NCBI GenBank assembly: GCA_016199085.1
Contig: JACQHJ010000004.1
Span: forward strand, 16,926-80,925
Length of the DNA: 64,000 nt
Source: Candidatus Levyibacteriota bacterium
Lineage (GTDB): Bacteria > Patescibacteriota > Microgenomatia > Levybacterales > UBA12049
Direction of reading: 5' to 3'
Shown here: positions 6,128-53,135 of the stretch, piece after piece
Numbering within the stretch: the first letter of the stretch is position 1
How the letters are laid out: the number at the start of each line of letters is the position of its first letter
Translations under genes and position numbers: made by a program
Notes under the pieces: generated by a model
Seen by the model: only the letters and a program-made list of their open reading frames with translations
Told to the model about the DNA's origin: nothing
Database searches by the model: none

Positions 6128-6131
6128 AGGT

Positions 6132-7835: not shown

Positions 7836-7924
7836 TTAAGTATTTTATTATACCAGATTAGCTTTAAAGTCTTGTTGCAAAAACAAAAACAATGTGATAC
7901 CCTTACCCCAAGGAATTTAGGCAG

Positions 7925-8961: not shown

Positions 8962-9591
8962 ATGCAGATAATCCCTGGTATCCTGGAAAACAATTGGGCA
9001 AAGATTGAGGAAAAATTGGAAATCGTTAAAAGCTTTTCAAATACGGTTCATATAGATTTAATCGATGGAAAATTTGCTACCAATACGACTTTTATGGATC
9101 CACAGCCTTTTTTGTCTTATTCTGGGGAACTTTTTTTAGAAGTTCATTTAATGACTGATAATCCGATACAATACCTTGAGCCTTTTAGTAAGGCTGGTTT
9201 TAAAAGATTTATCGGACACGTTGAAAAAATGCCAGACATTTCCGATTTTGTCGCAAGAGGACAACTACTTGGAGAGGTTGGGCTTGCCTTAGATCTTTCT
9301 ACAAGTATTGATAATCTTAAAGCCTCGTTTGACAACTTAGACTTAATTTTACTAATGGGGGCAGCAGCTGGTGCTTCAGGGCAGCAGTTTAATCCCCAAA
9401 TAATCGAGAAAATAAAAAATTTAAGAGCAAAAACAAATATACCAATTGAGATTGACGGGGGAGTTAGTGACAAAAATATTATTGAGATTAAAAACGCTGG
9501 TGCCAATAGGTTTGTAACTACGAGTTTTTTATTTAACTTACAAGATCCAAAAGTTTCTTATAAAACACTTAGTGGATTAATTTCCTCTTAA
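8962..9591 (+). CDS. rpe: ribulose-phosphate 3-epimerase-like protein
   Basis: HIDLIDGKFATNTTF (compare the Rpe motif HLDVMDG.FVPN.TFG), a TIM-barrel pattern, and adjacency to rpiB. Confidence 0.65.
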   Translation: MQIIPGILENNWAKIEEKLEIVKSFSNTVHIDLIDGKFATNTTFMDPQPFLSYSGELFLEVHLMTDNPIQYLEPFSKAGFKRFIGHVEKMPDISDFVARGQLLGEVGLALDLSTSIDNLKASFDNLDLILLMGAAAGASGQQFNPQIIEKIKNLRAKTNIPIEIDGGVSDKNIIEIKNAGANRFVTTSFLFNLQDPKVSYKTLSGLISS

Positions 9592-11975: not shown

Positions 11976-14168
11976 TCATGGATTTGGTGTTGGCGATGGT
12001 TCTGGAGTTGGATGGGGGCAAGAAAGGCAATATTGGTCTCCGGTTGGATCGGTGTAAACGACTGCGTCTTTTAATTCTATGTTATCGGTCTGTCCTTTTT
12101 TAGCCAGATCCTGGGTGTTTTTATCTATCCAAACCTGAGTATTGCCTGGAGGCTGATTTTTAGGCTCGGATCCTTTTATGAAATATTCAAGTCTTGTCGG
12201 ACACGATGCCCCGCTTCCATCTGGCGGAGGAAGAGCTCCCGTATCTGAACAGACCTGTTTTTGGATTACGTCAGCAGGTCTTGACATTCCTTCGGGGGTC
12301 TTGCCTTGTAGAAGAAAGCTCATGATGTCATTCCAGATTGGCGCAGCCCCTGTTACTCCGGAAACTACTCCGCTCATTTGGGTATTGTCGTTATTTCCTA
12401 CCCACGTTGTAACCAAATACGAGGGCGTATAGCCGATTGTCCAGTTGTCTTTATAATCGTTGGTAGTTCCTGTTTTAACAGAAACAATTTGTTTTGGTAT
12501 TACCAGTTCTGAACTGCCTCCGAAAGCGGCGAGCCTTGCTCCGTTATCTTGTAAAATATCAGAGATTATAAATGCAACTCCGTCAGGCAAAACTCTTTTA
12601 CCAAAAATTGGGCTTGTTGGGGGATTGTATTCTTCCATGATTTTTCCGTTTTTATCCAAGATCTTAAGTATCGGATGAAGGTTAATTCTATAGCCTCCGT
12701 TGGCAAATACTCCGAAAGCTTGGGCCATATCTACCATTTTTACTTCTCCTCCTCCAAGCGTTAAAGAAAGGCCGTAATTATCAGGATCTGTAAAAGTGGT
12801 TATTCCCATAGCAGACGCTGTTGCAATCATTGCACGAAGGCCATTTACTTTTAGCATTTTTACAGCAGGAATATTAAAAGAATTACCAAGCGCAATGCGC
12901 ATTGAAACCAATCCGTGCCATTTGCCGTCGTAATTGACAGGACAATAGTCTCTTCCTCCCTGGTTTGGATAACATGTAGGCTGGTCGATAAAAGTAGTTG
13001 CCGCGTTATATTTATTAATTAGACCAGTGGCATAATTGATCGGCTTAATTGATGATCCGGGCTGGCGAAGGCTAGTTGTAATATTAACGTTTCCGTCAAT
13101 AGAACTATCAAAATAATCTTTGGAGCCTACCATTGCCAAGATTTCACCAGTGCCGGGGTGAGTTACCAGTGCTGCTCCGTTTGAAACCCTGTAAGATTTT
13201 GGTAGTCTATTGATTTGGGCGGCAACAGAGGCCTGGGCAGCGTTTTGGATATCCAGATCAAGAGTTGTCGTAATCTTAAGTCCTCCTTCCTCAACTAACT
13301 CTTGTCCGTATTTTTGGATAAGTAAGTCTTTAATATATAAAACAAAGTGGGGAGCTTCAATTTCATTTGAAAGCTTTTTGTATTTTAAAGGAGTGTTTTG
13401 GGCTTTTTGTCTTTGCTCTTTAGTTATAAAGTCCTCTTCTTCCATTGCTTTTAAGACTTCGAGTTGTCTTTGTTTGGCAAGTTCGGGGCGGGAGCCAAAT
13501 GGCGAATAAAGCGTTGGGGATTGGGGAAGTCCTGCCAGAAGTGCACTTTCTTCCAAATTTAAATCACTGGCTTTTTTTCCGAAATATCTCTGCGCTGCAG
13601 CCTCGACACCCCAGGCGGTTCCGCCATACGGGCTTTGGTTTAAATACATCTCCAAGATTTGGTCTTTGGAATAAATAAATTCGGTTGCGAAGGAAAGTAT
13701 TACTTCTTTAATTTTCCTAGGAATCGTTCTTTCCTGAGTTAAAAGGCTGTTTTTTACAAGTTGCTGCGTTAACGTTGATCCTCCCTGAAGTTGCTGTTTA
13801 AAGACAATTGCAACTGCCGCCCTTGCCATACCTCTAATGTCTATTGCGCCGTGTTCATAGAAGTTTCTGTCTTCAATTGCAATCGTTGCCTCCCTTACGT
13901 CTTTGGGAACACTTGCTAAGGGAACAAAAATTTGGTTTTTTTGATCATAGATTTGATATAAAAGTTTTCCGTTTCGGTCATATATCTGGCTTGATTGCGG
14001 AGTTGAGGTACTGGACAGTTTTGTAGGAAGTGGAAGATCTTTTAAGATATAGAAATAAAAGACAGCGGCAAAAATAAAAAAAAGAATAAGCAGAATTAAT
14101 CTAATTTTTGGTAGTTTCCCCAATTTTTTAAGAAAGGCGGTGAGATCAAAATTTTTCAATTTTCCCAT
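11976..14168 (-). CDS. class A penicillin-binding protein (PBP1A paralog)
   Basis: EDRNFYEH..QGGSTLTQQL. It is collinear with the downstream PBP1A gene. Confidence 0.9.
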   Translation of the reverse strand: MGKLKNFDLTAFLKKLGKLPKIRLILLILFFIFAAVFYFYILKDLPLPTKLSSTSTPQSSQIYDRNGKLLYQIYDQKNQIFVPLASVPKDVREATIAIEDRNFYEHGAIDIRGMARAAVAIVFKQQLQGGSTLTQQLVKNSLLTQERTIPRKIKEVILSFATEFIYSKDQILEMYLNQSPYGGTAWGVEAAAQRYFGKKASDLNLEESALLAGLPQSPTLYSPFGSRPELAKQRQLEVLKAMEEEDFITKEQRQKAQNTPLKYKKLSNEIEAPHFVLYIKDLLIQKYGQELVEEGGLKITTTLDLDIQNAAQASVAAQINRLPKSYRVSNGAALVTHPGTGEILAMVGSKDYFDSSIDGNVNITTSLRQPGSSIKPINYATGLINKYNAATTFIDQPTCYPNQGGRDYCPVNYDGKWHGLVSMRIALGNSFNIPAVKMLKVNGLRAMIATASAMGITTFTDPDNYGLSLTLGGGEVKMVDMAQAFGVFANGGYRINLHPILKILDKNGKIMEEYNPPTSPIFGKRVLPDGVAFIISDILQDNGARLAAFGGSSELVIPKQIVSVKTGTTNDYKDNWTIGYTPSYLVTTWVGNNDNTQMSGVVSGVTGAAPIWNDIMSFLLQGKTPEGMSRPADVIQKQVCSDTGALPPPDGSGASCPTRLEYFIKGSEPKNQPPGNTQVWIDKNTQDLAKKGQTDNIELKDAVVYTDPTGDQYCLSCPHPTPEPSPTPNP

Positions 14169-18727: not shown

Positions 18728-21700
18728 ATGAAATTAGACGGCATAAGACAAAAAGTATTTTTAGATAGATATTCATTGAAAGACATTAAAGGAGCCCCAA
18801 TTGAAAAAACTCCTGATGAAATGTGGAAGAGGGTTGCCAAGGGTATTGCCAGTGTCGAAAAGAAAAAAGATAGAAAGAAATGGGAGAAGAAATTCTTTGA
18901 AGTGATGGATGGCTTTAAGTTTTTACCCGGCGGAAGAATTTTAGCAGGTGCCGGAACAGGTTTTGACGTTACCTATTACAACTGCTTTGTTATCCCAAAT
19001 CCTCCTGATTCAAGAGGCGGGATAATGCAAAATTTAACACAGATGATTGAGATTATGGCACACGGTGGGGGCGTAGGACTTAACCTTTCCTCTTTAAGAC
19101 CAAGAGGATCAAGGGTTAAGAAAGTAAACGGATTTTCATCGGGTCCTCTAAATTGGGCAGAGCTTTATTCCCTTGCTACAAAAGATATTGTTCAACAGGG
19201 AGGTTGTTTTACAAAAGATGCAAAAATAATGACCCATAAGGGACTTATAAGCATTGAAGACATTGTAGGAAGTAATGGAAATTATTTTGCTCAAACACAT
19301 AAAGGTCTTAAAAAAATTACTGCAAAATTCGATAATGGTATAAAAGAAGTATTTGAGGTTGAAACATTAGGAGGATACAAAGTAAAGGTAACCAAAGACC
19401 ACAAATTTTTGACATTTACAAATAATGGCAATTTCTATCTTAAAAGACTGTCTGATTTACTAAAAGGAGATTCTCTTGTTTTACTTTCGTCAATATTCTT
19501 GGATGAAATCCCGGAGGTTTTATTAAAAGACAATATTGCAAGGCCCTCAAAGTTTTCCTATGGAAGAAGAACTGTTAATTTTCCAAAGACATTAACAAAA
19601 GATCTTGCTTTTGTTTTGGGAGTATATGCAGTTGATGGATCAAGAGTTAAAGACGAATATGCTTTTTCAAAAGGTCTTAGATTTGCAGTTGATGCAAAGA
19701 GAAAAAAAGACCTTAAACTACTTGTAAAAACAATATCCTCTCTTTTTGGTGTAACACCAATTTTAAGAAAAGGAGATGGGAATGTAATAGAGGTTAGTCT
19801 TTATTCCAGAAATCTGGTTGAGCTGCTAAGACTTAATAATCTCTTAAAAGAAAATTCAAATAAAGTTTTTGTTCCGGAACAGATTTTTTCATCTCCCAAA
19901 AGCGTTGTTGAAGCCTTTATCGCAGGAGTATTTTTTGGAGACGGTGGAAACAGGGGAGGAAAGGGAGGATTTAGAATAACTTCCGTAAATAAAAAATTTA
20001 CGGAAGACATCCAACTTCTTCTTTTAAATCTTGGTGTTGCCTCAAAACTTACAAAACAGGTAAGAGGCAGTTGGCAAGACTTATACACCTTAAATGTCAA
20101 TGGAGCTAAATTTATGAAGAGATTTTTGGAAATAGTTGCTCCATTTAATGAAAAGGCATTTGATAATGCAATTTCAACAAGGGATGCATTTTATAATTTT
20201 CCGATAAATGTTGTTAAAAGATTTGCCTATCTTTCCGGGATCCAAAGAACAATTGCTTACACAAATCCAACAACCTCATATAAAACCCTTGCTTTTATGG
20301 AAAATAATATGTCAAGAATTGATGATAAAGATATTGAAGATACCGAGATTTTAACATCAACGATTTCGGATAAAATTAAAAAAATTACAAAACTTGGGCT
20401 TGAACAGGTTTATGACCTTGAAGTAGGAGACGTTCATCTTCTCTCGGGTAATGGATTCTATACATCTAACAGTAGAAGGGGTGCTTTGATGTTAATGCTT
20501 AACGACTGGCATCCGGATATTGAAGAGTTTATAACTGTCAAACAGGATTTAAACAAAATAAACGGAGCAAACCTTTCGGTCTGTATTTCAGACGCATTCA
20601 TGGAAGCTATCAAAAAAGACGCTGATTGGGACTTGGTTTTTGCAGACCTGGATGATAAAAAATATGATAAAAAATGGACAGGAGACTTAGATGCTTGGAG
20701 GAAAGCCGGCGGAAAAGTTAAAGTAGTAAAAACAGTTAAAGCAAAATATCTCTGGGATCTAATCTGTACCGCTGCTTGGAAATCTGCAGAGCCTGGACTT
20801 CACTTCTTGGATAGGTCAAATAAGAGATCAAATACTTGGTATTTTGAGACTTTGACAGCCACGAATCCGTGCCTGACAGCAGATACATGGGTGCACACTA
20901 ATCAAGGACCTCGTCAAATAAGTGACTTAATTGGAAAACAATTTGTCGCGCGGGTAAATGGCGCAGACATTTTATCTGGGCCTCAGGGATTTTTTAAGAC
21001 TGCCACTAAGCCAGTTATTCATTTAAAAACAAAAGAAGGCTATAGTTTACGATTAACAAAAGATCATCTTATTCAATATGTTTCTACTATGAGTCGTTAC
21101 TCTACTAAAACAAAATGGCGAGAAGCCGGAAAACTTCAAAAAGGAGATTTAGTTGTCTTACAAAATCATAGTAGTAATAATACTTGGGAAGGAAATTACA
21201 GTCATAAGGAAGGTTATCTTATGGGAATGCTTATTGGGGATGGAACATTAAAACAAGATAAAGCAGTTTTGTCAGCATGGTTACCTCGCAGGACAACTTC
21301 TGTTGGATTAACACCAAGCGGTCAACAGGCAGTTATGGAGAGTGTTTCTTATGTGGCTATGTCTTTGCCTCATAGGGTAGATTTTAACGGATGGAGCAGG
21401 GTAAAAAATCGTGGAGAATACAGGCTTTCTCTTGCATCAATAAAGCAATTGGCAGAGGAGTTGGGAATGAGGCCGGGATATAAAACAATAACAAAACTCA
21501 TGGAAGAATCTTCAAGCGATTTTTATAAAGGATTACTTAAAGGACTTTTTGATACAGACGGTTCAGTACAAGGAAATCAAAGAAAGGGAGTAAGCATAAG
21601 ACTAGCCCAATCAGACCTGTTCTTATTAGAAGCAGTCCAAAGGATGTTGCTTAGGCTTGGTATTACCTCAAGAATATATAAAAATCGTCGCCAGGAGGGA

Positions 21701-23572
21701 ACTAAATCATTGCCTGATGGTAAAGGTGCAACAAAGGAATATCATATTAAAGCCCAACATGAATTAGTAATAAGTGGTAGTAATGTACTCCTTTTCTCAG
21801 AGCTTATTAATTTTGAAGACACTCAAAAATCATCTCGTTTAAGAAATCTCTTAGGTGCATATAAACGTAAATTAAACAGAGAGAGATTTGTAGCAACAGT
21901 AGAGAGTTTAGAGCTAGATGGAAAAGAGGATGTTTTCGATGTGCAAATTCCTAATCTTCATGCTTTTGATGCAAATGGATTTCATGCGCATAACTGCGGA
22001 GAGCAGCCATTATCACCTTGGGCTGTTTGTAACCTCGGAGCAATGAATCTGGCTGCATATGTAGATAAAAAAGGAGTTTTTGACTATGACAATTTTGGAA
22101 AAGACGTAAGGGTAGCAGTAAGGTTTTTGGATAACGTCATCGATGATACGCATTATTTTTATAAAGAAAATGAAAAAGTAGCAAAAGACATAAGACGTCA
22201 GGGTCTTGGAATATTAGGGCTTGCCGATGCTTTGATAAAAATGAAAATAAAATACGGCGCAGAGGATTCCCTTGTCGTTATTGAAAAAATATTTAAAACT
22301 CTTCGTGACAACGCCTATATTGCCTCATCTGATATCGCAGCCGAAAAAGGAAGTTTTCCAAGATACAACAGAGACAAATACCAAAAAGGCTGGCATATTA
22401 AAAGACTTCCTGAGGAAATTAAGAAAAAGATCTATCAACAGGGAATTAGAAATGCGGTACTTCTAACAATTGCTCCAACAGGAACAACCTCTTTAATTTC
22501 AGGAGTATCCTCAGGAGTTGAGCCTGTTTATGAGTTTGAGTTTATTAGACGCGATAGGCTTGGAGAACATATGATGTACCATCCTTTGTTTGATGAATGG
22601 AAAAAGGAAAATCCAGATAAGCAAAAACCAGACTATTTTGTTTCGGCAAATGACCTAACTCCTGAAGAGCACGTCAAGGTCCAGGCAGTTGCCCAAAATT
22701 ATATTGATTCATCAATTTCAAAAACAGTCAACGCTCCTAAGAAACATACGGTAGAAGACGTTAAAAAGCTTTATGAAATGGCTTTTGACATGGGTCTTAA
22801 AGGAATAACCTATATGAGAGATGGTTCAAGAGAGGGAGTATTATCTCGAAAAGAAGATAAGAAAGAAGAGGTAGCCCAGGTAACCTTGGAGTCAAAACTT
22901 CTTCCCGTTATACCAAGACCTGCGATGGTTGAGGGTGTAACGTATGGAACAGAGACTCCTGTTGGAAAAACATATATCACGATAAATCATGATGAGAAAA
23001 AACAGCCCTTTGAAGTCTTTATAACAGTTGGAAAATCCGGCTCAGACGTTGCCGCCATGGCAGATGCTCTTGGCAGAATGATCTCGTTGGCTCTAAGAAT
23101 CAACGGGCAAGTTGCTCCAAGAGAAAGAATGAGACAGGTTGTAGCCCAGATTGTCGGAATCGGAGGAGCAAGAAGCGTAGGTTTTGGAGAAAACAGGGTC
23201 AGATCTTTGCCAGACGCAGTTGCAAAAGTATTATCTAAACACTTTGAATTTCGGGTAAACGGAATTGTTGAAGACAAAAACCTAACCAATGGACACGCCA
23301 ATGTCCTTACAAATGTAGTAACCAATGGTAATGGTCATGCAGCTACAAAAGCTAATACGCATATTCCAGTTGATGTAGACAATAAAGAGGAAGTAAAAGA
23401 AGAAATTGTAAAATTGGAACAATTAACTCTCCAGACACCTGCCGGAAACTTATCCTCAACTTCCGGAACGTCAACAGGACTTTATGACATCTGCCCCGAA
23501 TGCGGAGGAGCAACCCTTGCCTACGAAGAAGGTTGCAAGAAGTGCTACTCTTGCGGATATTCAGAATGTTAG
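18728..23572 (+). CDS. nrdJ: class II (adenosylcobalamin-dependent) ribonucleotide reductase NrdJ, interrupted by two inteins
   Basis: Exteins total ~817 aa. The catalytic motif TATNP-[intein]-CGEQPLSPWAVCNLG is present. The C-terminal zinc ribbon is CPECGG..CKKCYSCGYSEC. Confidence 0.85.
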   Translation: MKLDGIRQKVFLDRYSLKDIKGAPIEKTPDEMWKRVAKGIASVEKKKDRKKWEKKFFEVMDGFKFLPGGRILAGAGTGFDVTYYNCFVIPNPPDSRGGIMQNLTQMIEIMAHGGGVGLNLSSLRPRGSRVKKVNGFSSGPLNWAELYSLATKDIVQQGGCFTKDAKIMTHKGLISIEDIVGSNGNYFAQTHKGLKKITAKFDNGIKEVFEVETLGGYKVKVTKDHKFLTFTNNGNFYLKRLSDLLKGDSLVLLSSIFLDEIPEVLLKDNIARPSKFSYGRRTVNFPKTLTKDLAFVLGVYAVDGSRVKDEYAFSKGLRFAVDAKRKKDLKLLVKTISSLFGVTPILRKGDGNVIEVSLYSRNLVELLRLNNLLKENSNKVFVPEQIFSSPKSVVEAFIAGVFFGDGGNRGGKGGFRITSVNKKFTEDIQLLLLNLGVASKLTKQVRGSWQDLYTLNVNGAKFMKRFLEIVAPFNEKAFDNAISTRDAFYNFPINVVKRFAYLSGIQRTIAYTNPTTSYKTLAFMENNMSRIDDKDIEDTEILTSTISDKIKKITKLGLEQVYDLEVGDVHLLSGNGFYTSNSRRGALMLMLNDWHPDIEEFITVKQDLNKINGANLSVCISDAFMEAIKKDADWDLVFADLDDKKYDKKWTGDLDAWRKAGGKVKVVKTVKAKYLWDLICTAAWKSAEPGLHFLDRSNKRSNTWYFETLTATNPCLTADTWVHTNQGPRQISDLIGKQFVARVNGADILSGPQGFFKTATKPVIHLKTKEGYSLRLTKDHLIQYVSTMSRYSTKTKWREAGKLQKGDLVVLQNHSSNNTWEGNYSHKEGYLMGMLIGDGTLKQDKAVLSAWLPRRTTSVGLTPSGQQAVMESVSYVAMSLPHRVDFNGWSRVKNRGEYRLSLASIKQLAEELGMRPGYKTITKLMEESSSDFYKGLLKGLFDTDGSVQGNQRKGVSIRLAQSDLFLLEAVQRMLLRLGITSRIYKNRRQEGTKSLPDGKGATKEYHIKAQHELVISGSNVLLFSELINFEDTQKSSRLRNLLGAYKRKLNRERFVATVESLELDGKEDVFDVQIPNLHAFDANGFHAHNCGEQPLSPWAVCNLGAMNLAAYVDKKGVFDYDNFGKDVRVAVRFLDNVIDDTHYFYKENEKVAKDIRRQGLGILGLADALIKMKIKYGAEDSLVVIEKIFKTLRDNAYIASSDIAAEKGSFPRYNRDKYQKGWHIKRLPEEIKKKIYQQGIRNAVLLTIAPTGTTSLISGVSSGVEPVYEFEFIRRDRLGEHMMYHPLFDEWKKENPDKQKPDYFVSANDLTPEEHVKVQAVAQNYIDSSISKTVNAPKKHTVEDVKKLYEMAFDMGLKGITYMRDGSREGVLSRKEDKKEEVAQVTLESKLLPVIPRPAMVEGVTYGTETPVGKTYITINHDEKKQPFEVFITVGKSGSDVAAMADALGRMISLALRINGQVAPRERMRQVVAQIVGIGGARSVGFGENRVRSLPDAVAKVLSKHFEFRVNGIVEDKNLTNGHANVLTNVVTNGNGHAATKANTHIPVDVDNKEEVKEEIVKLEQLTLQTPAGNLSSTSGTSTGLYDICPECGGATLAYEEGCKKCYSCGYSEC
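19205..20470 (+). mobile_element. intein 1 in NrdJ (422 aa) with LAGLIDADG homing-endonuclease domain
   Basis: It starts with Cys after ..QQGG and ends ..GFYTSN followed by Ser. The LAGLIDADG-like blocks are LGVYAVDGS and IAGVFFGDGG. The penultimate residue is Ser rather than the usual His. Confidence 0.7.
20870..21994 (+). mobile_element. intein 2 in NrdJ (375 aa) with LAGLIDADG homing-endonuclease domain, inserted at the catalytic cysteine
   Basis: It begins CLTADTWV directly after TATNP and ends ..FHAHN followed by CGEQ. The LAGLIDADG blocks are LMGMLIGDGTL and LLKGLFDTDGSV. GC is locally elevated. Confidence 0.8.
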
Positions 23573-26647: not shown

Positions 26648-29020
26648 ATGAATAACTTTTTACTAAATATTACAAATATTGTTTCAATATTAATCTTTTT
26701 TTCCGTCTTTATAGTTTTAGCCGGAGCTTTGGTTGCGGTTCTTGGCTATCTTTTAATAATCTGGCATAGAAACAAAGAAAGAGAGAAAAAATCTCTTGAT
26801 TCAACGCTACTTCAAATAGCGCTTCCAAGGGAAAATGAAATTAAAATCGACGCTGCAGAACAGCTTTTTGCGGCTCTTGCAGGCATTAAACCAAGCGGAA
26901 GACTCTCCTTTTTAAAATACAGATATCCCATTTCCTTTGAGGTCGTTGGAATGCCAGGAGACATCAGATTCTATATCTACACACCCAATAAGTACAGGGA
27001 TATGATCGAAAAGCAGATCAACGCCTCATACCCCGACGCCGAAATTAAAGTTGCCGAAGAAGGAAATGTCAAAGGGGGAAAACCTGGTTTTATTCTGGGA
27101 AACGAATACAACATTTTCCAAAAAGACGGATTTGTCGCTTTTAAGCAGTTAAAACTCAAAGATTCAAACTACAAACCGATCAAAGTCTATAAAGATTTGG
27201 CAGTTGACCCCCTTTCTTCTTTAACGTCGGTTTTGTCCAAAATGAGCGAGGGGGAGGGAGCAGCCATCCAGATACTTATTTCGGGCGCCGATTCAAAATG
27301 GAGTAAGCTTGGAAGAAGTTTTATTGCAGAAACCAAAAAAAGAGAATCAAACCCAGAAACTGCAAAATACTCTTCAGATCCGAAAGAACTTGAGGGAATT
27401 GAGGGAAAGATTTCCAAACCAGGTTTTTATACCGTAGTAAGATTAGTTGTTTCATCAACTAGCAAGGAGGCTGCTGAGGCTCATTTAAATAACTTAGACG
27501 CTGCTTTTGATCAGTTTAGCGGCTCCAATTCTTTTACCAAAACCAGAATCTGGATGAAGGGAACCTTTATAAATGACTTTGTTTACAGGTATTTCCCAAT
27601 GAGAGGGTCTTTCTCGGTACTTACCTCTGAAGAGCTTGCGACAGTTTTCCATTTTCCAAACAAGTCTGTTGCGACACCTCATATCTACTGGTTAAATGCC
27701 AAAAAAGCACCCGCTCCCGTTCAAATACCGGAAAGCGGTTTATATCTTGGTATGAGCACATACAGAGGCATGGCAAAGCCAGTCTATATCCAAAAAGATG
27801 ATCGAAGAAGACACATGTATGTCATCGGAAAAACCGGTGTAGGGAAATCAGAGTTTCTAAAGGACATGATACTGCAAGACATTAAAAACGGAGAGGGAGT
27901 CTGTTTTATAGATCCGCATGACACAATCGATAAGCTTCTGCCTTTAATTCCGCCAGAACGAGCAGAAGACGTTATTTTGTTTGACCCCTCTGACACGGAT
28001 AGGCCGATGGGGTTAAACATGTTGGAAGCCCAGACTGAGCAGGAGAAACATTATATAGTCTCTTCAATAGTCGGACTTATGTATAAGCTCTATGATCCAA
28101 ATAAAACAGGTATTATCGGTCCTCGTTTTGAGCACGCAATTAGAAACGCGATGTTAACGGTTATGAGTGAACCCGGAGCTACTTTCATTGAAGTAGTCAG
28201 AGCTTTAACCGATTCAAGCTTTGTCCAAGAACTTTTGCCAAAAGTCCAGGATCCAATCATCAGACGCTACTGGACAGATCAGATTGCCCAAACCAATGAT
28301 TTCCATAAGTCCGAGACCTTGGATTACATTGTTTCCAAATTCGGAAGATTCGTTACCAATAAGATGATGCGAAACATCATCGGCCAGTCATATTCATCTT
28401 TTGACTTTAGAAAAGCTATGGATGAAGGCAAAATCCTTTTGGTCTCACTCTCCAAAGGAAAAATCGGAGAAGAAAATGCAAGCTTTTTAGGGTTGGTTTT
28501 GGTCCCAAAAATATTGGTAGCGGCAATGAGTAGACAAGACATGCCAGAAGAGCAAAGAAGAGATTTCTATTTATACGTTGACGAGTTCCAAAACTTTGCA
28601 ACCCCTGATTTTGCCCAGATTTTGTCCGAGGCCAGAAAATACAGGCTTAACTTAATCGTTGCCAACCAGTTTATCGGCCAAATGGACGAAGAGGTTAAAA
28701 ACGCTATTTTTGGAAACGTAGGATCAATAGTTTCTTTTAGGGTAGGCGTAACAGATGCAAATTACCTCCAGCATGAATATCAACCAACCTTTACAGAAGC
28801 CGATTTGATCAACATAGATGTTTTTAATGCTTATGTTAAAACAATCGTTAATAATGAGCCTGTAAGTCCGTTCTCCATGGATTTAACAAGAGATCTGACC
28901 AAAGAAAAACAAATGGAAAACCCAAGGGTAGCAGAGCTAATAAGGGAATTATCGAGGATAAAGTACGGTAAAGACGTAAGACTACTTGAGACCGCAATTG
29001 CCCAAAGAGCGAGGCTTTGA
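26648..29020 (+). CDS. VirD4/TraG/TraD-like type IV coupling-protein-family ATPase (membrane anchored)
   Basis: N-terminal TM helices, Walker A IGKTGVGKS and Walker B LYVDEFQNF, and a C-terminal KYRLNLIVANQ motif as in the TraG/TraD C-terminal domain. Confidence 0.7.
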   Translation: MNNFLLNITNIVSILIFFSVFIVLAGALVAVLGYLLIIWHRNKEREKKSLDSTLLQIALPRENEIKIDAAEQLFAALAGIKPSGRLSFLKYRYPISFEVVGMPGDIRFYIYTPNKYRDMIEKQINASYPDAEIKVAEEGNVKGGKPGFILGNEYNIFQKDGFVAFKQLKLKDSNYKPIKVYKDLAVDPLSSLTSVLSKMSEGEGAAIQILISGADSKWSKLGRSFIAETKKRESNPETAKYSSDPKELEGIEGKISKPGFYTVVRLVVSSTSKEAAEAHLNNLDAAFDQFSGSNSFTKTRIWMKGTFINDFVYRYFPMRGSFSVLTSEELATVFHFPNKSVATPHIYWLNAKKAPAPVQIPESGLYLGMSTYRGMAKPVYIQKDDRRRHMYVIGKTGVGKSEFLKDMILQDIKNGEGVCFIDPHDTIDKLLPLIPPERAEDVILFDPSDTDRPMGLNMLEAQTEQEKHYIVSSIVGLMYKLYDPNKTGIIGPRFEHAIRNAMLTVMSEPGATFIEVVRALTDSSFVQELLPKVQDPIIRRYWTDQIAQTNDFHKSETLDYIVSKFGRFVTNKMMRNIIGQSYSSFDFRKAMDEGKILLVSLSKGKIGEENASFLGLVLVPKILVAAMSRQDMPEEQRRDFYLYVDEFQNFATPDFAQILSEARKYRLNLIVANQFIGQMDEEVKNAIFGNVGSIVSFRVGVTDANYLQHEYQPTFTEADLINIDVFNAYVKTIVNNEPVSPFSMDLTRDLTKEKQMENPRVAELIRELSRIKYGKDVRLLETAIAQRARL

Positions 29021-39357: not shown

Positions 39358-42300
39358 ATGGCAGGTATTAAAAGACCCAAAAAATTAAGACAGGTGAAGC
39401 TAAAAATGAAACTTTCGTGGAAAAACGTAATTATCTATGTTTTTCTGATTCTTTTTACGGCTTTTTTGTTTTTCGGCGTAAGTTCTCCAAACAGTAATAA
39501 TTCGCTTTCCGGAGAAACAGTTAAAACAGTTCCTCTCTCTCAACTTATCTCAGACGTTAAAGCAAACAAAGTATCGTCTCTTGATGTTTACCCAAATAAG
39601 ATTGTAGCAACGACAAAGAGCGGAAAACTTGAAAGCTTTAAAGAAACTGATGCAAGCGTTTACCAATTATTCAGTGACGCCAAAGTTGATATAGGAAAAA
39701 CAAAGGTTGTAATAAAAGACGATACGGCATTAAACAACTGGGTTGGAATCTTAACAGGAGTTTTGCCAATTGTCTTAATGGTTGCATTTTTCTGGTTTAT
39801 ATTTAGGCAAGCAAGGGGAGCGCAGGAAAATATCTTTTCTTTTGGAAAATCTGGCGCAAAACTATTTTCAAAAGACACCCCGAAAACCACTTTTGCAGAC
39901 GTAGCAGGAGTTGACGAAGCAAAACAGGAATTAACTGAAATAGTAGATTTTCTCAAAAATCCGGGCAAATACAAGGCAATGGGAGCAAGAACTCCAAAAG
40001 GAGTTTTAATGATTGGCCCAAGCGGAACAGGAAAAACACTTTTGGCGAAGGCAATGGCCGGAGAAGCTGGAGTCGCCTTCTTTTCTATAGCAGGATCTGA
40101 GTTTATGGAAATGCTGGTGGGTGTTGGTGCTTCTGTAACGGGTGATACACCAATTCTTATAAAACAAAATGAGACAACAAAACTTTTGCCAATTGGTGAA
40201 TTTGTTGACAATTTCTATAAAACAGACAAAGAGGGAATTGTGTCGGTTGACGGCGTTTCTACCTTGGGTTTTGACTCAAACGAAGACAGGAAGACTTCTG
40301 GAAAAAGTTTTTATGGATACAAAAACGGAAAAATGCAAACAATTAGTGGTTCTTCTTTTAAGAAAGTTACATCTGTTTTTAGACATAAAGTTGACGAAAT
40401 ATACGAGATTTATTATTTAGGGGGAGTGATAAAAGCAACCGCAGATCACTCTGTTTTTATAAGAAGATACGGAAGAATAATGGCGATAGAAACAAAAGAC
40501 ATGAAAAAAGGAGATATACTGGTTGAACTTCCTCTTAATATTCGTCTTCCATATCTAAAAGGTACAAAACAAAGACACAAAATTATTGCTCATAGTTTTC
40601 CAAAAGAACAATCAATAACTCTTGATGTCTGGAATGATGACGAAGGTTTAGTTGAAAAATATGCTTATGTAATGTCTCAAAAAGGACTTATGAATCAATA
40701 TGTCCTTGGTCAAGAAGTTGGCTTTTCCCAGGCAACTGTTGGCAATTGGCAAAATAATGTTCATATCCCAAGACTTTTAAGTAAAAAACGTGTAAAACTT
40801 AAACTTCCTGACAAAGTAACAGTGACACCAGAGCTTATGAAGCTTTTTGGATACTATACTGCAGAAGGAAGAGGAACAGGAAAGCTTGAATATGTATTCG
40901 GTATTCATGAGAAACTACTACACGAGGATGTTTTTGATTTAATGCAAAAAGTATTCGGAGTAAGTCCAGCTTTAGAGAAGACAATTGATAACGCTCTTAG
41001 GATAAAATATTACTCAGCACATTTAGGAAGATTTTTTGCAAGACATTGCGGAAACGGAAGTCATAATAAACACGTACCCGATTTTATCTGGGATTTGCCA
41101 AAGGAATATTTCCTTGCCTTTCTTGAAGGGTATTGGAGGGGGGATGGATATATCACAAAAGATAGAAAACTTTGTATTAGCTCTGTCTCCAAACAGTTAA
41201 TTTTAGAACTTTCATGGCTTTGCAGCATGCATGGAATGAAAGTGGGGATAAAACAAGATGAGTTGAGAAAAGGACGTGTTATTAAAAATAAAAATAAACC
41301 TCTTCCGGGCGGTTTATATTGGACTTTAATTATTGGAAAAACTACACACCCCATTACTGATTCAACTGTCCAAAGCCCATTCCAGTTTAAAAGAGCTATT
41401 GTTCAAAAAATTGTAAAAAGAAAATATGACGGATTTGTTTATGATCTTTGCGGAGTTGATAATGAAGCATTCTTTGGAGGAGAAAAACCGGTACTTCTGC
41501 ATAACTCAAGGGTAAGGGATTTATTTAACAACGCCAAAAAAGCCCAACCCGCAATTATTTTCATAGATGAAATTGACGCCATTGGAAGACAACGTGGAGC
41601 CGGATTTATGGGAGGACACGATGAAAGAGAACAGACGTTAAATCAGATTTTGGTTGAAATGGACGGTTTTACTCCTAATGAGCAACTGGTGGTAGCGGCG
41701 GCGACTAACAGGCCTGACGTTTTAGACCCTGCTCTTATCAGACCTGGAAGATTTGATAGAAGAGTAGCTTTGGAGCTTCCCGATGTCAAGGGAAGAGAGG
41801 CAATACTTAAAATACACGCAAGAGGAAAGCCTTTTGCAAAAGACGTAGCTTGGGAAAAAACCGCCAAAAGAACGGTAGGATTTAGCGGAGCCGATCTTGA
41901 AAACATGCTCAATGAAGCGGCAATTCTGGCTGCCCGTCTTGGTAAGAAAACAATTGATCCAGCCGACCTTGAAGAAGCAGCCACCAAAGTAAAATTGGGG
42001 CCTGAGAAAAAAAGACTTCAGTCGGAAATGGATAGGAAAATGACAGCCTATCACGAAGCAGGACACGCTCTTGTTTCTTGGTTTATGCCAAACATGGATC
42101 CAATTCATCGAATCTCAATAGTATCCCGTGGAATGAGCCTAGGTCACACAATGATGGAGCCAATAGACAGAGTTCATGAAACAAAGACTCATCTAATAGA
42201 GGAAATTGCGGTCATGCTTGGGGGAAGAGCGGCTGAAAGCCTTGTTTTTAATGAATTTACAACAGGCGCATCAGATGACATTGCCAAAGCAACGGAGGTT

Positions 42301-42603
42301 GCAAGAACAATGGTTGTGGAATACGGCATGAGTGAGCTGGGTCCTATAAATTTAAACGGTGAAGACAGAAGAATGCCTTATGAGACTCCAAATATTTCTC
42401 CGGATATGGCGGCAAAAATAGATGCTCAGGTTAAAAGGCTAACAGATGAAGGATATGCAGCAGCCTTGTCTGTTCTAAAAAAGCTTAGAAAAAAGCTCGA
42501 TGTACTTGCAAAGGAGCTTTTGAAAAAAGAAACCCTGGAATCTGAAGAATTTGAAAAACTGATAGGTACAAAAAAACCCGCTTTGGCCAAAGTTTTAGCC
42601 TAA
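39358..42603 (+). CDS. ftsH: ATP-dependent zinc metalloprotease FtsH, interrupted by an intein in the AAA+ domain
   Basis: Walker A GPSGTGKT, the SRH region, the zinc-binding motif HEAGHAL, and an N-terminal TM pair. The exteins total ~623 aa. Confidence 0.85.
40132..41505 (+). mobile_element. intein in FtsH (458 aa) with LAGLIDADG homing-endonuclease and HTH insert
   Basis: The host sequence ..EMLVGVGA-[[11 protein letters not shown] ... EKPVLLHN]-SRVRDLF reconstitutes the conserved FtsH VGVGASRVRDLF. Block B is TADH, and LAGLIDADG-like blocks are [13 protein letters not shown] and [13 protein letters not shown]. It has a Ser1 nucleophile and Ser at +1. Confidence 0.75.
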
Positions 42604-51410: not shown

Positions 51411-53135
51411 ATGAAATTTAGTCAACTAACAGAGTATTTTGAAAAACTTGAGAAAACCTCTTCAAGGCTTTCTTTAATTGAAATCCTGTCCGAACTTTTT
51501 AAAAAAACACCCACTCAAGAAATTGATAAAATCTCATATCTAATTCAGGGAAGGCTAGCTCCCTTCTTTATTCCCTTAGAGATTGGAATGGCGGAGAAAA
51601 ATGTAGCTAAAGCCATAGCCCAGGCTTTCGGGGTAACGCCGGAGGAAGTTACGATAGAATATAACAAGCTTGGTGATATGGGACTTGCCGCAAGTCAATT
51701 TGCCAAAAAGTCAAAAGACGGAAATGTTTCGGTTTTGGAAGTTCACAAAACGCTGACTGAAATTGCAAATACTAAGGGAGAGGGAACGGTTGAGAAAAGA
51801 CAAAAACTTTTGGCAGACCTTCTTTCAAAAATGGAGGTAATTTCGGCAAAGCATTTGGTCAGAATTCCTCTTGGAAATGTGCGCTTAGGCATCGGAGATC
51901 CAACGGTTTTAGACGCTCTTGCTACTGCAAAATTGGGAGACAAATCAAAAAGAAAACTTTTGGAAGGAGCGTATAACAAGACTTCAGATTTAGGTTTAAT
52001 TGCAAAGACGCTTTGGGAGAAAGGATTAGCCGGAGTTGAAAAGCTTGATGTTAGAGTTGGATCACCCATAAGGTCGGAGCTTTGTGAAAGGTTGCCAAGT
52101 CCCCAAAAAGTAATTGAGAAAATGGGAGAGGTTGATGCCCAAATGAAATTCGATGGAATACGTGTACAGCTGCACAAGAATGGAAATGAGGTCAGGGTGT
52201 TTTCTAGAAATCTTGAAGAAATGACTCATATGTTTCCTGAGCTTATTTCGGCAACTGTGGCCCAAGTCAAGGCAAAAACAGTCATCTTAGACGGAGAAGC
52301 GTTGGCTTATAACCCCGATTCAGAAGAGTTTTTACCTTTCCAGGAAACGACCAAAAGAAGAAGAAAACATGGTATTGAAGAAATGGCCGCAAAACTTCCT
52401 TTAAAGGCATTTATCTTTGATATTTTATATAAAGACGGGCAGTCTCTAATAGATAAGCCACTATCCCAGCGAATGGAAATTCTTTCCAATACTATCGTTG
52501 AAGACGGAGTTTTAATTAAAAGTAAAAACCAGGTTATTAAAGACGCAAAACCTTTGTCGATAATGCTTGAAGACGCAATTTCCAAGGGCCTTGAAGGAGT
52601 TGTAATTAAAAAACTGGAGAGTCCTTATGAGGCTGGAGCAAGGAACTTCAACTGGGTAAAGCTTAAAAGACACTCATCCGGAGAACTAAGCGACACAGTT
52701 GACTGCGTAATCTTAGGTTATGTTACTGGAAAAGGAAAAAGGATTGCATTCGGAGCAGGAGCTTTACTTGTTGGTTTGTACGACAAAACTAAGGATGAAT
52801 TTGTAACTGTTTCAAAAATTGGAACCGGTCTTACTGATGAGGAGTGGAGAGAGGTTCATAAAAGAGCTGATAGGATAAGAGTGGAAAGTAAGCCAGCAAG
52901 GGTAAACTCCTTAATTACCCCTTCTGTTTGGATAAAGCCTGAAATAGTAATTGAAGTTTTAGCAGATGAAATAACAAGAAGCCCAATTCACACTGCCGGA
53001 AAAACAGATTCAGAACCAGGTTTTGCTCTAAGATTTCCAAGACTAGTTTCTTTTAGAGGATTGGATAAAAGGGCAGAGGATGCAACTAGCGTTGATGAGC
53101 TAATTGAAATGTTTAAACAGCAAGGAAAGAAGTAG
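51411..53135 (+). CDS. ATP-dependent DNA ligase (archaeal/eukaryotic LigI-like)
   Basis: Adenylation motif I KFDGIR (KxDG), motifs III-V, and an OB domain; 574 aa. Confidence 0.85.
   Translation: MKFSQLTEYFEKLEKTSSRLSLIEILSELFKKTPTQEIDKISYLIQGRLAPFFIPLEIGMAEKNVAKAIAQAFGVTPEEVTIEYNKLGDMGLAASQFAKKSKDGNVSVLEVHKTLTEIANTKGEGTVEKRQKLLADLLSKMEVISAKHLVRIPLGNVRLGIGDPTVLDALATAKLGDKSKRKLLEGAYNKTSDLGLIAKTLWEKGLAGVEKLDVRVGSPIRSELCERLPSPQKVIEKMGEVDAQMKFDGIRVQLHKNGNEVRVFSRNLEEMTHMFPELISATVAQVKAKTVILDGEALAYNPDSEEFLPFQETTKRRRKHGIEEMAAKLPLKAFIFDILYKDGQSLIDKPLSQRMEILSNTIVEDGVLIKSKNQVIKDAKPLSIMLEDAISKGLEGVVIKKLESPYEAGARNFNWVKLKRHSSGELSDTVDCVILGYVTGKGKRIAFGAGALLVGLYDKTKDEFVTVSKIGTGLTDEEWREVHKRADRIRVESKPARVNSLITPSVWIKPEIVIEVLADEITRSPIHTAGKTDSEPGFALRFPRLVSFRGLDKRAEDATSVDELIEMFKQQGKK

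What the first reader, a model, noticed from the sequence alone, without database searches (positions are those of the whole stretch)
39358..42603. FtsH protease interrupted by a Ser1 LAGLIDADG intein in the AAA+ module
The host sequence reads ..EMLVGVGA [458 aa] [12 protein letters not shown]. Removal of 40132-41505 restores the universally conserved FtsH VGVGASRVRDLF. The insert has block B TADH, C-terminal HN, Ser at +1, two LAGLIDADG-like blocks and a predicted HTH. It starts with Ser rather than Cys. Inteins in FtsH are uncommon. Here the membrane protease needed for viability depends on protein splicing. Together with the two NrdJ inteins, that makes three homing-endonuclease inteins in 64 kb.
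Basis: partly seen in the sequence, partly recalled or inferred. Interest (0 to 1): 0.6.

Follow-up and report, generated by a model that had tools for sequence, protein, structure and literature searches.

The report
Self-splicing intein inside FtsH protease
The only ftsH gene in this window, from a Candidatus Levybacteria genome, is interrupted in frame by a standard 458-residue intein that carries its own homing endonuclease; it belongs to a family found at this site in many bacterial phyla, so it is real but ordinary in kind.

Summary
ORF 39358-42603 (+) is one uninterrupted 1081-aa frame. Removing aa 259-716 (nt 40132-41505) leaves a 623-aa FtsH that aligns without a gap across VGVGA|SRVRDLF to solved FtsH structures.

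The insert has the expected intein residues: Ser1, block B TADH, two LAGLIDADG motifs with E/D, block F VYDLCG, and C-terminal HN followed by Ser+1. It matches PI-PkoII by sequence (E 3e-18). A confident AlphaFold model (pLDDT 88.7) matches PI-PkoII, the Tli/Pho VMA inteins, PI-PfuI and PI-SceI.

The element is not a one-off:
- 270 of 185,579 GTDB species genomes encode a relative.
- In 70 of the best 80 loci a strict check finds the same site with Ser1/HN/Ser+1 invariant.
- Of the 120 closest FtsH proteins, 3 carry the intein. A syntenic relative has an empty site.
- dN/dS is about 0.11 on the endonuclease domain.

Related inteins sit at three other AAA+ motifs of FtsH, in archaeal AAA ATPases and in fungal YME1. 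The HTH claim has only weak support.

Verdict: a canonical class-1 intein and a new member of a known kind. The intein surveys I could read do not mention FtsH. Splicing and endonuclease activity are inferred, not shown.

The parts
39358..42603 (+). ftsH precursor gene (1081 codons plus stop)
   Evidence: Single ORF. TIGR01241 FtsH_fam 705 bits; Peptidase_M41, AAA in two stretches, AAA_lid_3, FtsH_ext. An identical protein is in NCBI nr as 'AAA family ATPase [Candidatus Levybacteria bacterium]' (P0115).
39358..40131 (+). N-extein (aa 1-258): membrane and extracytoplasmic region, Walker A GPSGTGKT (aa 220), pore-1 loop L253-V254-G255; ends in ...VGVGA
   Evidence: The syntenic orthologue L081 starts with the same MAGIKRPK....
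40132..41505 (+). Intein (458 aa), Ser1 to Asn458
40132..40536 (+). N-terminal splicing (Hint) lobe, intein aa 1-135: block [12 protein letters not shown] and block B T103-A-D-H106 (nt 40438-40449). Residues 53-67 form a low-confidence loop.
   Evidence: TIGR01445 intein_Nterm covers aa 2-110. Alignment to the TFIIB mini-inteins 5o9i/5o9j covers aa 5-132. S1, T103 and H106 are invariant in A1. Beta-strand-rich model.
40537..40815 (+). Linker with a three-helix module (intein aa ~136-228; helices at 171-182, 189-196, 200-207); possible accessory HTH for DNA binding
   Evidence: AF2 secondary structure. Only sub-threshold HTH_3/HTH_23/Cro-like hits in 6 of 7 homologous segments, none for the window's own. 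Highest dN/dS of the intein, 0.229.
40816..41331 (+). LAGLIDADG homing-endonuclease domain (intein aa ~229-400): motif 1 LFGYYTAEG (E245), block [10 protein letters not shown] (K313), motif 2 [12 protein letters not shown] (D338)
   Evidence: Pfam LAGLIDADG_3. Aligns to PI-PkoII 272-414 with both motifs matched. E245 and D338 are invariant in A1 and at least 90% conserved in A2. dN/dS 0.109 against L001.
41389..41505 (+). C-terminal splicing lobe (intein aa ~420-458): block [18 protein letters not shown] (D438) and block G KPVLLHN (H457, N458)
   Evidence: Aligns to the C-terminus of PI-PkoII. V436, Y437, D438, H457 and N458 are invariant. dN/dS 0.043.
41506..41508 (+). Ser+1, the first residue of the C-extein and the nucleophile of the second splicing step
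   Evidence: Ser in 70 of 70 homologous intein-bearing loci.
41506..42603 (+). C-extein (aa 717-1081): SRVRDLF, Walker B IIFIDEID (aa 733), sensor-1 AAATNRPD (aa 780; this is a second intein site in other genomes and is empty here), AAA lid, M41 protease with HEAGH (aa 899)

Best explanation
This is a canonical class-1 intein with an embedded LAGLIDADG homing endonuclease, inserted in frame in the ftsH gene of a Candidatus Levybacteria (Patescibacteria/CPR) bacterium.

The steps below are inferred from conserved residues and from the established class-1 splicing mechanism. They were not demonstrated here.

1. The 1081-aa precursor is translated. The 458-aa insert sits five residues after the pore-1 loop of the AAA+ ring, so the precursor should be inactive as a translocase.
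2. The Ser259 (Ser1) hydroxyl attacks the Ala258 carbonyl in an N-O acyl shift, helped by block B T361/H364. This produces an ester.
3. Ser717 (+1) takes over the N-extein by transesterification.
4. Asn716 cyclises, helped by His715 and the block F Asp, and releases the intein.
5. An O-N shift restores the peptide bond. The product is a 623-aa FtsH reading VGVGASRVRDLF.
6. The freed intein is expected to act as a site-specific endonuclease on intein-free ftsH alleles. It would cut at the joined sequence around ...GGTGTTGGTGCT|TCAAGGGTAAGG... and be copied in by recombinational repair (homing).

What the data show directly is the sequence anatomy, the predicted fold, conservation of the catalytic residues, purifying selection, and presence/absence polymorphism among close relatives.
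For: Reading frame and excision:
- The frame is uninterrupted and the excision is exact.
- The expected splicing and endonuclease residues are all present. S1, T103/H106, E245, D338, D438, H457 and N458 are invariant among eight full-length homologues.

Homology:
- Sequence match to the solved intein endonuclease PI-PkoII, E 3e-18, in collinear pieces covering the Hint-N, LAGLIDADG and Hint-C parts.
- AF2 model with pLDDT 88.7 and pTM 0.86. Its best PDB matches are all intein endonucleases: 2cw7 at 9e-22, then 7qsu, 7qss, 7qst, 1dq3 and 1vde.

Distribution:
- 270 GTDB species genomes encode a relative. The best 80 cover the query end to end (aa 1-458; L029 to 448) at 46-82% identity across many phyla.
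- 70 of 70 strictly checked loci have the insert in the same ORF at the same site, with Ser1, HN and Ser+1.

Selection (window against L001):
- dN/dS is 0.125 for the intein and 0.109 for its endonuclease domain, against 0.04-0.055 for the exteins.
- dS is similar in the intein (0.89) and the exteins (0.62-1.25).

Mobility signature:
- Only 3 of the 120 closest FtsH proteins carry the intein. Intein-free orthologues are 92-93% identical.
- L081 is the syntenic TrpRS-ftsH-DUF975 locus with an empty site.
- Natural mini-intein versions of 176-212 aa occur at the same site.
- The Gemmatales (L021) intein is 5-14 points more similar to the inteins of several other-phylum loci, including Chloracidobacterium (L024) and Eisenbacteria (L037), than the exteins are. 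This suggests cross-phylum transfer.
Against: - There is no experimental evidence of splicing or DNA cleavage for any member of this allele family in the papers I could search.
- Pfam Intein_splicing falls just under its cut-off on the whole precursor (34.7 against 35.8), though it passes on the isolated insert.
- Intein and extein identities are correlated overall (Pearson 0.81). Much of the distribution could therefore be vertical inheritance with losses, rather than ongoing homing.
- dS against L001 is near saturation, so the dN/dS values are rough.
- The sequence comes from a metagenome-assembled genome.
- Whether this is the only ftsH of the organism is unknown.
Confidence: 0.9

Rival explanations
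1. The splicing domain is active but the endonuclease is dead. The intein would then be a vertically inherited passenger that still splices, has lost homing activity and is on its way to becoming a mini-intein.
For: - Mini-inteins lacking the endonuclease exist at the same site (P0064, P0067, P0073, P0076).
- One member (P0086) and the fungal YME1 copies have degenerate LAGLIDADG regions.
- Intein and extein divergence are correlated.
Against: - In the window's copy both LAGLIDADG motifs keep the acidic residues (E245, D338) and block D K313.
- The endonuclease domain has dN/dS of about 0.11 against L001, not about 1.
- Presence/absence polymorphism occurs among orthologues at least 92% identical.
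Confidence: 0.25
2. Splicing is conditional and regulates FtsH. The host would use it as a post-translational switch that keeps FtsH inactive until some signal arrives.
For: - The insert lies next to the pore-1 loop, so the precursor and the product should differ completely in activity.
- The intein is about as conserved across phyla as the FtsH core: mean pairwise identity 54.5% against 59.8%.
- Published work proposes regulatory roles for inteins in ATPase domains (PMC4760082, PMC5238726, PMC6195587; listed).
Against: - Nothing specific to this locus supports it.
- The catalytic nucleophiles are Ser/Ser, so the redox-sensing mechanisms described for Cys inteins do not apply.
- Most close relatives manage without the intein. 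This argues against a host-beneficial role.
Confidence: 0.08
3. The gene is a pseudogene or an assembly artefact: the insert disables ftsH, or is a chimeric mis-assembly.
For: The sequence is a metagenome assembly. NCBI names the product only 'AAA family ATPase'.
Against: - The frame is intact over 3243 nt.
- The junctions are exact to the residue.
- The same architecture occurs in at least 70 independent assemblies.
- There is strong purifying selection on both exteins and the intein.
Confidence: 0.02

Closest known systems
PI-PkoII (Thermococcus kodakarensis DNA polymerase intein 2; PDB 2cw7/2cw8)
   Same: Best match by sequence (E 3e-18) and by predicted fold (Foldseek E 9e-22). It has the same order of parts: Hint N-lobe, LAGLIDADG domain, Hint C-lobe. 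Both LAGLIDADG motifs align (LLGYYVSEG and LAFLEGYFIGDG), block D aligns (NKRIPEFVF), and it ends in HN.
   Different: The host is an archaeal family-B DNA polymerase, not FtsH. Foldseek reports only 18% identity for the match. The linker region (query aa 133-228, with the three-helix module) does not align. PI-PkoII is 537 aa against 458 aa here.
VMA1 inteins with homing endonuclease (PI-SceI 1vde/1lws; TliVMA 7qsu/7qss; PhoVMA 7qst) and PI-PfuI (1dq3)
   Same: The bipartite intein plus LAGLIDADG endonuclease fold (Foldseek E 2e-20 to 8e-10). Like PI-SceI, this element sits in an ATPase at a conserved nucleotide-handling motif.
   Different: The PDB titles give 'C1A' variants for the Tli and Pho VMA inteins, so those use Cys1; this intein uses Ser1 and Ser+1. 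Sequence identity is 11-19%.
Inteins in other ATP-dependent proteases and AAA+ proteins described in surveys (archaeal LonB, chloroplast ClpP, RFC, MCM, CDC48)
   Same: The same theme as in Novikova et al. 2016 (PMC4760082): inteins cluster in conserved motifs of P-loop/AAA+ ATPase domains.
   Different: FtsH and YME1 are not mentioned in the main text of that survey, of the eukaryotic survey (PMC5784728) or of PMC10710043. The supplements of PMC4760082 were not available.
Allelic FtsH inteins in public metagenome assemblies (e.g. L001 CAYWPH010000010, L006 Levybacteria MFNH01000064, L024 Chloracidobacterium UBA7656, L039 Eisenbacteria OY970342)
   Same: The same insertion site, the same junction residues (VGVGA|SVTGDTP ... 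LLHN|SRVRDLF) and the same domain order, at 46-83% identity.
   Different: They are database sequences only, annotated as 'AAA family ATPase', 'FtsH' or 'LAGLIDADG family homing endonuclease'. I found no study of them.

Membership tests
Class-1 intein (Hint-fold protein-splicing element) | Nucleophile (Cys/Ser/Thr) at intein position 1 | tested here: met
   Ser259 of the precursor, which is Ser1 of the intein. Ser1 in 70 of 70 allelic loci.
Class-1 intein (Hint-fold protein-splicing element) | Block B T-x-x-H motif | tested here: met
   T103-A-D-H106. T103 and H106 are invariant in A1, and H106 is invariant in A2.
Class-1 intein (Hint-fold protein-splicing element) | C-terminal His-Asn followed by a Cys/Ser/Thr at +1 | tested here: met
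   H457-N458 then Ser717. HN and Ser+1 in 70 of 70 loci.
Class-1 intein (Hint-fold protein-splicing element) | Removal restores a contiguous, conserved host protein | tested here: met
   The spliced 623-aa sequence aligns without a gap across the junction to FtsH 7tdo, 2dhr and 2ce7. Intein-free orthologues of 622 aa are 92-93% identical. The syntenic locus L081 has an empty site.
Class-1 intein (Hint-fold protein-splicing element) | Hint fold | tested here: met
   AF2 model with pLDDT 88.7. Foldseek matches to intein structures, including the mini-inteins 5o9i/5o9j, 4e2t and 9hth. Pfam Intein_splicing scores 37.6 against a cut-off of 35.8 on the insert, and TIGR01445 scores 28.5 against 24.5.
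Class-1 intein (Hint-fold protein-splicing element) | Autocatalytic splicing actually occurs | not testable with these tools
   Needs expression with Western blot or mass spectrometry, plus S1A, N458A and S+1A controls.
LAGLIDADG homing endonuclease (double-motif, intein-encoded) | Two LAGLIDADG helices, each ending in a catalytic acidic residue | tested here: met
   LFGYYTAE245G and [11 protein letters not shown]338G. Pfam LAGLIDADG_3 scores 38 bits. Both motifs align to those of PI-PkoII. Conserved.
LAGLIDADG homing endonuclease (double-motif, intein-encoded) | Site-specific cleavage of the intein-free allele, and homing | not testable with these tools
   Only indirect evidence: dN/dS 0.109 and presence/absence polymorphism among close relatives.
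FtsH (ATP-dependent zinc metalloprotease, TIGR01241) | N-terminal membrane/FtsH_ext region, AAA+ module with Walker A/B and sensor-1, M41 protease with HEXXH | tested here: met
   TIGR01241 scores 705 bits against a cut-off of 600. Pfam domains. [21 protein letters not shown] and HEAGH are located.
   No Pfam HTH family matched the window's own segment at E<=10. Homologous segments reach at best 22.7 bits against a cut-off of 23 for HTH_3. Three short helices are predicted at the right place. Two distant homologues (P0053, P0081) are named XRE-family HTH regulators by JGI, and P0081 carries a precomputed PF01381 hit.

The most novel reading that the evidence does not exclude
FtsH may be an unrecognised intein hot spot, served by one cross-domain family of Ser1 inteins (junction signature SVTGDTP...LLHN).

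What the data show:
- The family occupies the pore-loop site seen here (GVGA|S) in many bacterial phyla and in nuclear YME1 of kickxellomycete fungi.
- It also occupies the sensor-1 site (AA|TNRPD) in FtsH and in archaeal Cdc48/PAN-like ATPases.
- Unrelated Cys1 inteins occupy the Walker A site and the site just before Walker B. Up to three inteins can sit in one ftsH gene.
- Within the window's own genus-level clade, three allele types co-exist: intein-bearing, empty-susceptible (GVGASRVR) and possibly immune (GVGAARTR, which lacks the +1 nucleophile). That would be a live snapshot of the homing cycle in CPR bacteria.

None of this appears in the intein surveys I could read.
Probability: 0.45. 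Interest if true: 0.45.

Novelty: new member of a known kind. Interest (0 to 1): 0.35.

Why it matters
- Annotation. The intein makes NCBI's pipeline call this FtsH only an 'AAA family ATPase'. Gene callers often break such genes into fragments (many partial hits). Recognising the intein restores a core quality-control protease to the gene inventory of a reduced CPR genome.
- Intein biology. The work adds a host protein that the main texts of the published surveys I could read do not mention. It documents a widely spread family with Ser at both catalytic positions, and natural mini-inteins of 176-212 aa at the same site. Such cysteine-free splicing chemistry is of practical interest for protein engineering.
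- Evolution. Intein-bearing, empty and altered-site alleles co-exist among FtsH orthologues at least 92% identical. That gives a tractable case for studying homing dynamics in uncultured bacteria.
- No new mechanism is implied.

Tried and rejected
- Literature. Seven full-text searches and seven paper look-ups found no description of an FtsH or YME1 intein. The hits that combined 'FtsH' and 'intein' concerned separate features of the same genome: a phage PolB intein and a chloroplast RpoB intein. The supplements of PMC4760082 are not held, so absence from that survey's tables is unproven.
- Intragenomic spread from the NrdJ inteins. Rejected: there is only a weak 22-27% match to NrdJ intein 1.
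- A second ftsH in the window. None found.
- HTH claim. The Pfam scan of the linker segment gave no significant hit. I kept it as 'possible'.
- Locating the window's own contig via the look-up of encoding contigs on P0115. Not on record.
- First intein-versus-extein identity comparison. It was contaminated by loci with extra inteins in the flanks (L007, L023, L026, L027, L048). I repeated it without them.
- Low nucleotide identity just 3' of the insertion site between the window and the empty allele L081. I considered it as evidence of co-conversion or target escape. I do not rely on it, because the segment is made of six-fold-degenerate Ser/Arg codons that also vary among intein-bearing alleles.
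- Class-3 intein. Rejected: Ser1 is present, and an Asp, not the class-3 Cys, occupies the conserved block F position in VYDLCG.
Full report
**1. The observation**

The region 39358-42603 (+) is one open frame of 1081 codons with no stop or frameshift. Pfam and NCBIfam identify the host as FtsH:
- FtsH_ext, an AAA domain split into two stretches, AAA_lid_3 and Peptidase_M41.
- TIGR01241 at 705 bits against a cut-off of 600.

The AAA domain is interrupted after ...[12 protein letters not shown] (aa 258) by 458 residues, aa 259-716, nt 40132-41505. The host sequence resumes with [12 protein letters not shown]. After removing the insert, the 623-aa product aligns end to end with solved FtsH structures. 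The best is T. maritima 7tdo at E 4e-158, and there is no gap at the junction (vgvgaSrvrdlf against vgvgaArvrdlf).

**2. What the insert is**

By sequence:
- It matches Pfam LAGLIDADG_3 (38 bits) and Intein_splicing (37.6 bits alone; 34.7, just below the 35.8 cut-off, within the whole precursor).
- It matches NCBIfam intein_Nterm and the intein portions of several intein-containing archaeal proteins.
- It matches the solved intein endonuclease PI-PkoII at E 3e-18, in collinear pieces covering the N-terminal Hint lobe, the LAGLIDADG domain and the C-terminal Hint lobe.

An alignment with seven full-length homologues (A1) shows the expected blocks, all with invariant key residues:
- Block A: S1-VTGDTP.
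- Block B: T103-A-D-H106.
- LAGLIDADG motif 1: LFGYYTAE245G.
- Block D: NK313HVPDFIW.
- LAGLIDADG motif 2: [11 protein letters not shown]338G.
- Block F: GFVYD438LCG...FFGG.
- Block G: LLH457-N458, followed by Ser+1.

The block names follow the Pietrokovski/Perler nomenclature, which I apply from my own knowledge.

An AlphaFold2 model built on a 33-sequence alignment is confident: pLDDT 88.7 and pTM 0.86. Only the loop at aa 53-67 is poor. Its best PDB matches are all intein homing endonucleases: PI-PkoII at 9e-22, the Tli and Pho VMA inteins, PI-PfuI and PI-SceI. Mini-inteins and free LAGLIDADG enzymes follow.

The Ser at both position 1 and +1 leaves a formal one-residue ambiguity in where the insert begins. 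Intein chemistry requires a C-terminal Asn, and this fixes the boundaries as given.

**3. The HTH claim**

Between the Hint N-lobe and the endonuclease domain the model has three short helices at aa 171-182, 189-196 and 200-207. The sequence there (...[19 protein letters not shown]...) looks like a helix-turn-helix. The evidence is mixed:
- No Pfam HTH family matched the window's own segment at E<=10.
- In six of seven homologous segments, various HTH families appear only below their cut-offs. The best is HTH_3 at 22.7 against 23.
- Two distant homologues (P0053, P0081) are named XRE-family HTH regulators by JGI, and P0081 carries a precomputed PF01381 hit.

I treat an accessory DNA-binding HTH as plausible but unproven. 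This is also the least constrained part of the intein, with dN/dS 0.229.

**4. Position in FtsH**

The insert lies between Walker A (GPSGTGKT, aa 220) and Walker B (IIFIDEID, aa 733 of the precursor). It comes five residues after L253-V254-G255.

The alignment to the E. coli AAA domain 1lv7 is ungapped. Combined with my recollection of that construct's numbering, the site corresponds to about A233|S234 of E. coli FtsH, and L253 corresponds to the pore-1 residue F228. A 458-residue domain at this point should prevent the precursor from working as a translocase. That is an inference.

Microgenomates FtsH proteins have Leu rather than Phe at the pore position.

**5. Relatives elsewhere**

- *Protein database.* A search with the intein alone found 114 proteins. 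Most are FtsH fragments or full genes from Patescibacteria, Chloroflexi, Firmicutes, Deltaproteobacteria, Omnitrophota, Gemmataceae, Aeromicrobium and Gemmatimonadota. Their junctions are nearly invariant: VGVGA|SVTGDTP ... [10 protein letters not shown]|SRVRDLF.
- *GTDB species genomes.* A scan of one genome per GTDB species found 270 genomes of 185,579 with a relative. The best 80 cover the query end to end (aa 1-458; L029 to 448) at 46-82% identity. They also include Acidobacteriota, Eisenbacteria, Actinomycetota, Planctomycetota, Armatimonadota, Margulisiibacteriota, Verrucomicrobiia, Burkholderiales and Clostridia.
- *Junction check.* In 70 of these 80 loci a strict check found the insert in the same ORF at the same site. 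Ser1, HN and Ser+1 were present in all 70, and the -1 residue was Ala in 68 and Ser in 2. The other ten failed my pattern only through small sequence variation or truncated contigs, and showed nothing contradictory.
- *Mini-inteins.* Versions of 176-212 aa without the endonuclease occur at the same site.

**6. Origin of the window and age of the insertion**

A search with the spliced extein returned an identical 1081-aa protein. It is P0115, named 'MAG: AAA family ATPase [Candidatus Levybacteria bacterium]', on a contig of 87,862 bp.

Presence and absence among close relatives:
- Of the 120 closest FtsH proteins only three carry the intein: P0115, P0121 and P0122.
- The nearest intein-free orthologues are 92-93% identical, at 622 aa.
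- One of them lies in the same gene neighbourhood (TrpRS - ftsH - DUF975 - 5'-3' exonuclease) with an empty site (L081).

Against the closest intein-bearing relative (L001; intein 83%, exteins 95-99% identical), synonymous divergence is similar in the intein (0.89) and the exteins (0.62-1.25). The intein was therefore probably present in their common ancestor. dN/dS values:

| Region | dN/dS |
|---|---|
| Exteins | 0.04-0.055 |
| Whole intein | 0.125 |
| LAGLIDADG domain | 0.109 |
| Hint-C lobe | 0.043 |

dS is close to saturation, so these values are rough. They do not look like a decaying element.

Across 55 loci, pairwise intein and extein identities correlate (Pearson 0.81). The intein usually diverges a little faster. 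One clear exception is the Gemmatales locus L021. Its intein is 5-14 points closer to the inteins of several other-phylum loci, including Chloracidobacterium (L024) and Eisenbacteria (L037), than the exteins are. The picture is mostly co-divergence with frequent loss, plus occasional transfer between phyla.

**7. Empty-site alleles**

Among 115 intein-free close homologues, 110 read GVGASRVRDLF. Five read GVGAARTRDLF, and four of those five are among the very closest relatives. A neighbour-joining tree without bootstrap interleaves intein-bearing, AART and SRVR alleles within one clade at least 92% identical.

An Ala at +1 removes the nucleophile that an incoming intein would need, and it changes the presumed target. 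This may be a homing-resistant allele. It rests on one or two evolutionary events and is a hypothesis only.

The low DNA identity just 3' of the site is not informative, because those codons are six-fold degenerate and also vary among intein-bearing alleles.

**8. The wider family and other sites**

Projecting the intein ends onto more distant hits shows the same family, with the same SVTGDTP...LLHN ends and 41-48% identity over the full length, at a second site. This is the sensor-1 motif (..VVxAA|S...HN|TNRPDxLDPAL), in FtsH and in archaeal Cdc48/PAN-like AAA ATPases. That site is empty in the window's gene (AAATNRPD, aa 780).

More distant members sit in a PP-loop ATPase (HN|SGGKDS), in adenylosuccinate synthetase and in SIS-domain proteins. 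Nuclear YME1 genes of kickxellomycete fungi (Coemansia, Dipsacomyces, Spiromyces) carry the intein at the same site as here (YVGVGA|SVTGDTP...LLHN|SKVRSLF), with degenerate endonuclease regions.

Other ftsH genes also hold unrelated Cys1 inteins:
- in Walker A (GTGK|C...HN|T; L007, L023, L026, L027);
- just before Walker B (NAP|C...HN|CIIFVDEID; L023, L048).

L023 has three inteins in one gene. FtsH therefore has at least four intein sites, all in conserved AAA+ motifs. This fits the clustering described by Novikova et al. (PMC4760082).

**9. Mechanism**

From the conserved residues and the established class-1 pathway, I infer the following:
1. An N-O acyl shift at Ala258-Ser259.
2. Transesterification to Ser717.
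3. Cyclisation of Asn716, assisted by His715 and the block F Asp.
4. An O-N shift that restores the peptide bond.

The products would be a 623-aa FtsH and a free 458-aa endonuclease that targets empty ftsH alleles. None of these steps has been shown for this family.

Rival readings are listed separately: endonuclease dead but splicing intact, about 0.25; host-exploited conditional splicing, about 0.08; pseudogene or artefact, about 0.02.

**10. Comparison with the literature, and verdict**

The main texts of the prokaryotic survey (PMC4760082), the eukaryotic survey (PMC5784728) and the Anaeramoeba study (PMC10710043) do not mention FtsH or YME1. Seven full-text searches found no paper on an FtsH intein. 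The supplements of the first survey were not available. InBase was not searchable here, so prior listing in a database cannot be excluded.

The element is a textbook intein in every tested respect. The protein is already in public databases, though under-annotated. I rate it a new member of a known kind, with interest 0.35. It is solid and useful for annotation, and it gives an attractive allele system for studying homing. It is not surprising to a specialist.

They are only remotely similar to the FtsH intein.

Noticed in passing
window 18728-23572 (+); inteins at 19205-20470 and 20870-21994: The B12-type ribonucleotide reductase gene (1614 aa) carries two Cys1 inteins: QQGG|CFTKD...FYTSN|SRRG (422 aa, with Ser rather than His before the final Asn) and TATNP|CLTAD...FHAHN|CGEQ (375 aa). 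Pfam finds two LAGLIDADG_3 stretches in the protein. The FtsH intein is only 22-27% similar to intein 1.
   Followed up: partly
L023 (JAKEHD010000528, Blastocatellia), L048, L007 (Blackburnbacteria), L026, L027: Other ftsH genes carry extra, unrelated Cys1 inteins in Walker A (GTGK|C...HN|TLLA) and just before Walker B (NAP|C...HN|CIIFVDEID). L023 has three inteins in one ftsH.
   Followed up: partly
P0022-P0027, P0034, P0038, P0039, P0045, P0060, P0063, P0094, P0096: The same Ser1 intein family (SVTGDTP...LLHN) is inserted at the sensor-1 motif (AA|...|TNRPD) of FtsH and of archaeal Cdc48/PAN-like AAA ATPases, with Thr at +1. That site is empty in the window (aa 780).
   Followed up: partly
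P0065, P0066, P0072, P0074, P0079, P0091 (Coemansia, Dipsacomyces, Spiromyces): YME1 (i-AAA protease) genes of kickxellomycete fungi hold the allelic intein at the same site (YVGVGA|SVTGDTP...LLHN|SKVRSLF) with degenerate LAGLIDADG motifs. This host is not mentioned in the main text of the eukaryotic intein survey PMC5784728. Contamination was not excluded.
   Followed up: partly
P0116-P0119, P0125; L081 nt 6001-7869: Five of 115 intein-free FtsH orthologues read GVGAARTRDLF instead of GVGASRVRDLF exactly at the insertion site, and four of the five are among the closest relatives. This may be a homing-immune allele. It appears in two places in an unbootstrapped NJ tree.
   Followed up: partly
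window aa 253 of FtsH (nt 40114-40116); L001-L012, L015-L018, L030, L072: Microgenomates-type FtsH has Leu (EMLVG) where most bacteria have the pore-1 aromatic Phe (EMFVG).
   Followed up: no
P0055, P0075, P0078, P0080, P0085: More distant members of the same intein family sit in other hosts: a PP-loop ATPase at SGGKDS (PF01171), adenylosuccinate synthetase (PF00709) and SIS-domain proteins. All have Ser at +1.
   Followed up: no
window 9588-11912 (-) and 11976-14168 (-): Two adjacent class-A penicillin-binding protein genes (transglycosylase plus transpeptidase domains) lie in tandem.
   Followed up: no
window 26648-29020 (+): A 790-aa protein has weak TrwB/TraG/HerA-type coupling-protein domains. 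It may belong to a DNA-transfer or DNA-uptake system, which would bear on how a homing element spreads in this lineage.
   Followed up: no
window 51411-53135 (+): A three-domain ATP-dependent DNA ligase of the archaeal/eukaryotic type is encoded here.
   Followed up: no
L001, L003, L004, L008, L011, L014 and others: Several contigs are titled 'uncultured Gammaproteobacteria bacterium', yet their FtsH exteins are 78-99% identical to this Levybacteria protein. The record titles look like taxonomic mislabels.
   Followed up: no
P0115 and many hits: Intein-bearing FtsH genes are often annotated only as 'AAA family ATPase', 'LAGLIDADG family homing endonuclease' or 'hypothetical protein', and some are called as fragments. 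This is an annotation artefact caused by the intein.
   Followed up: no
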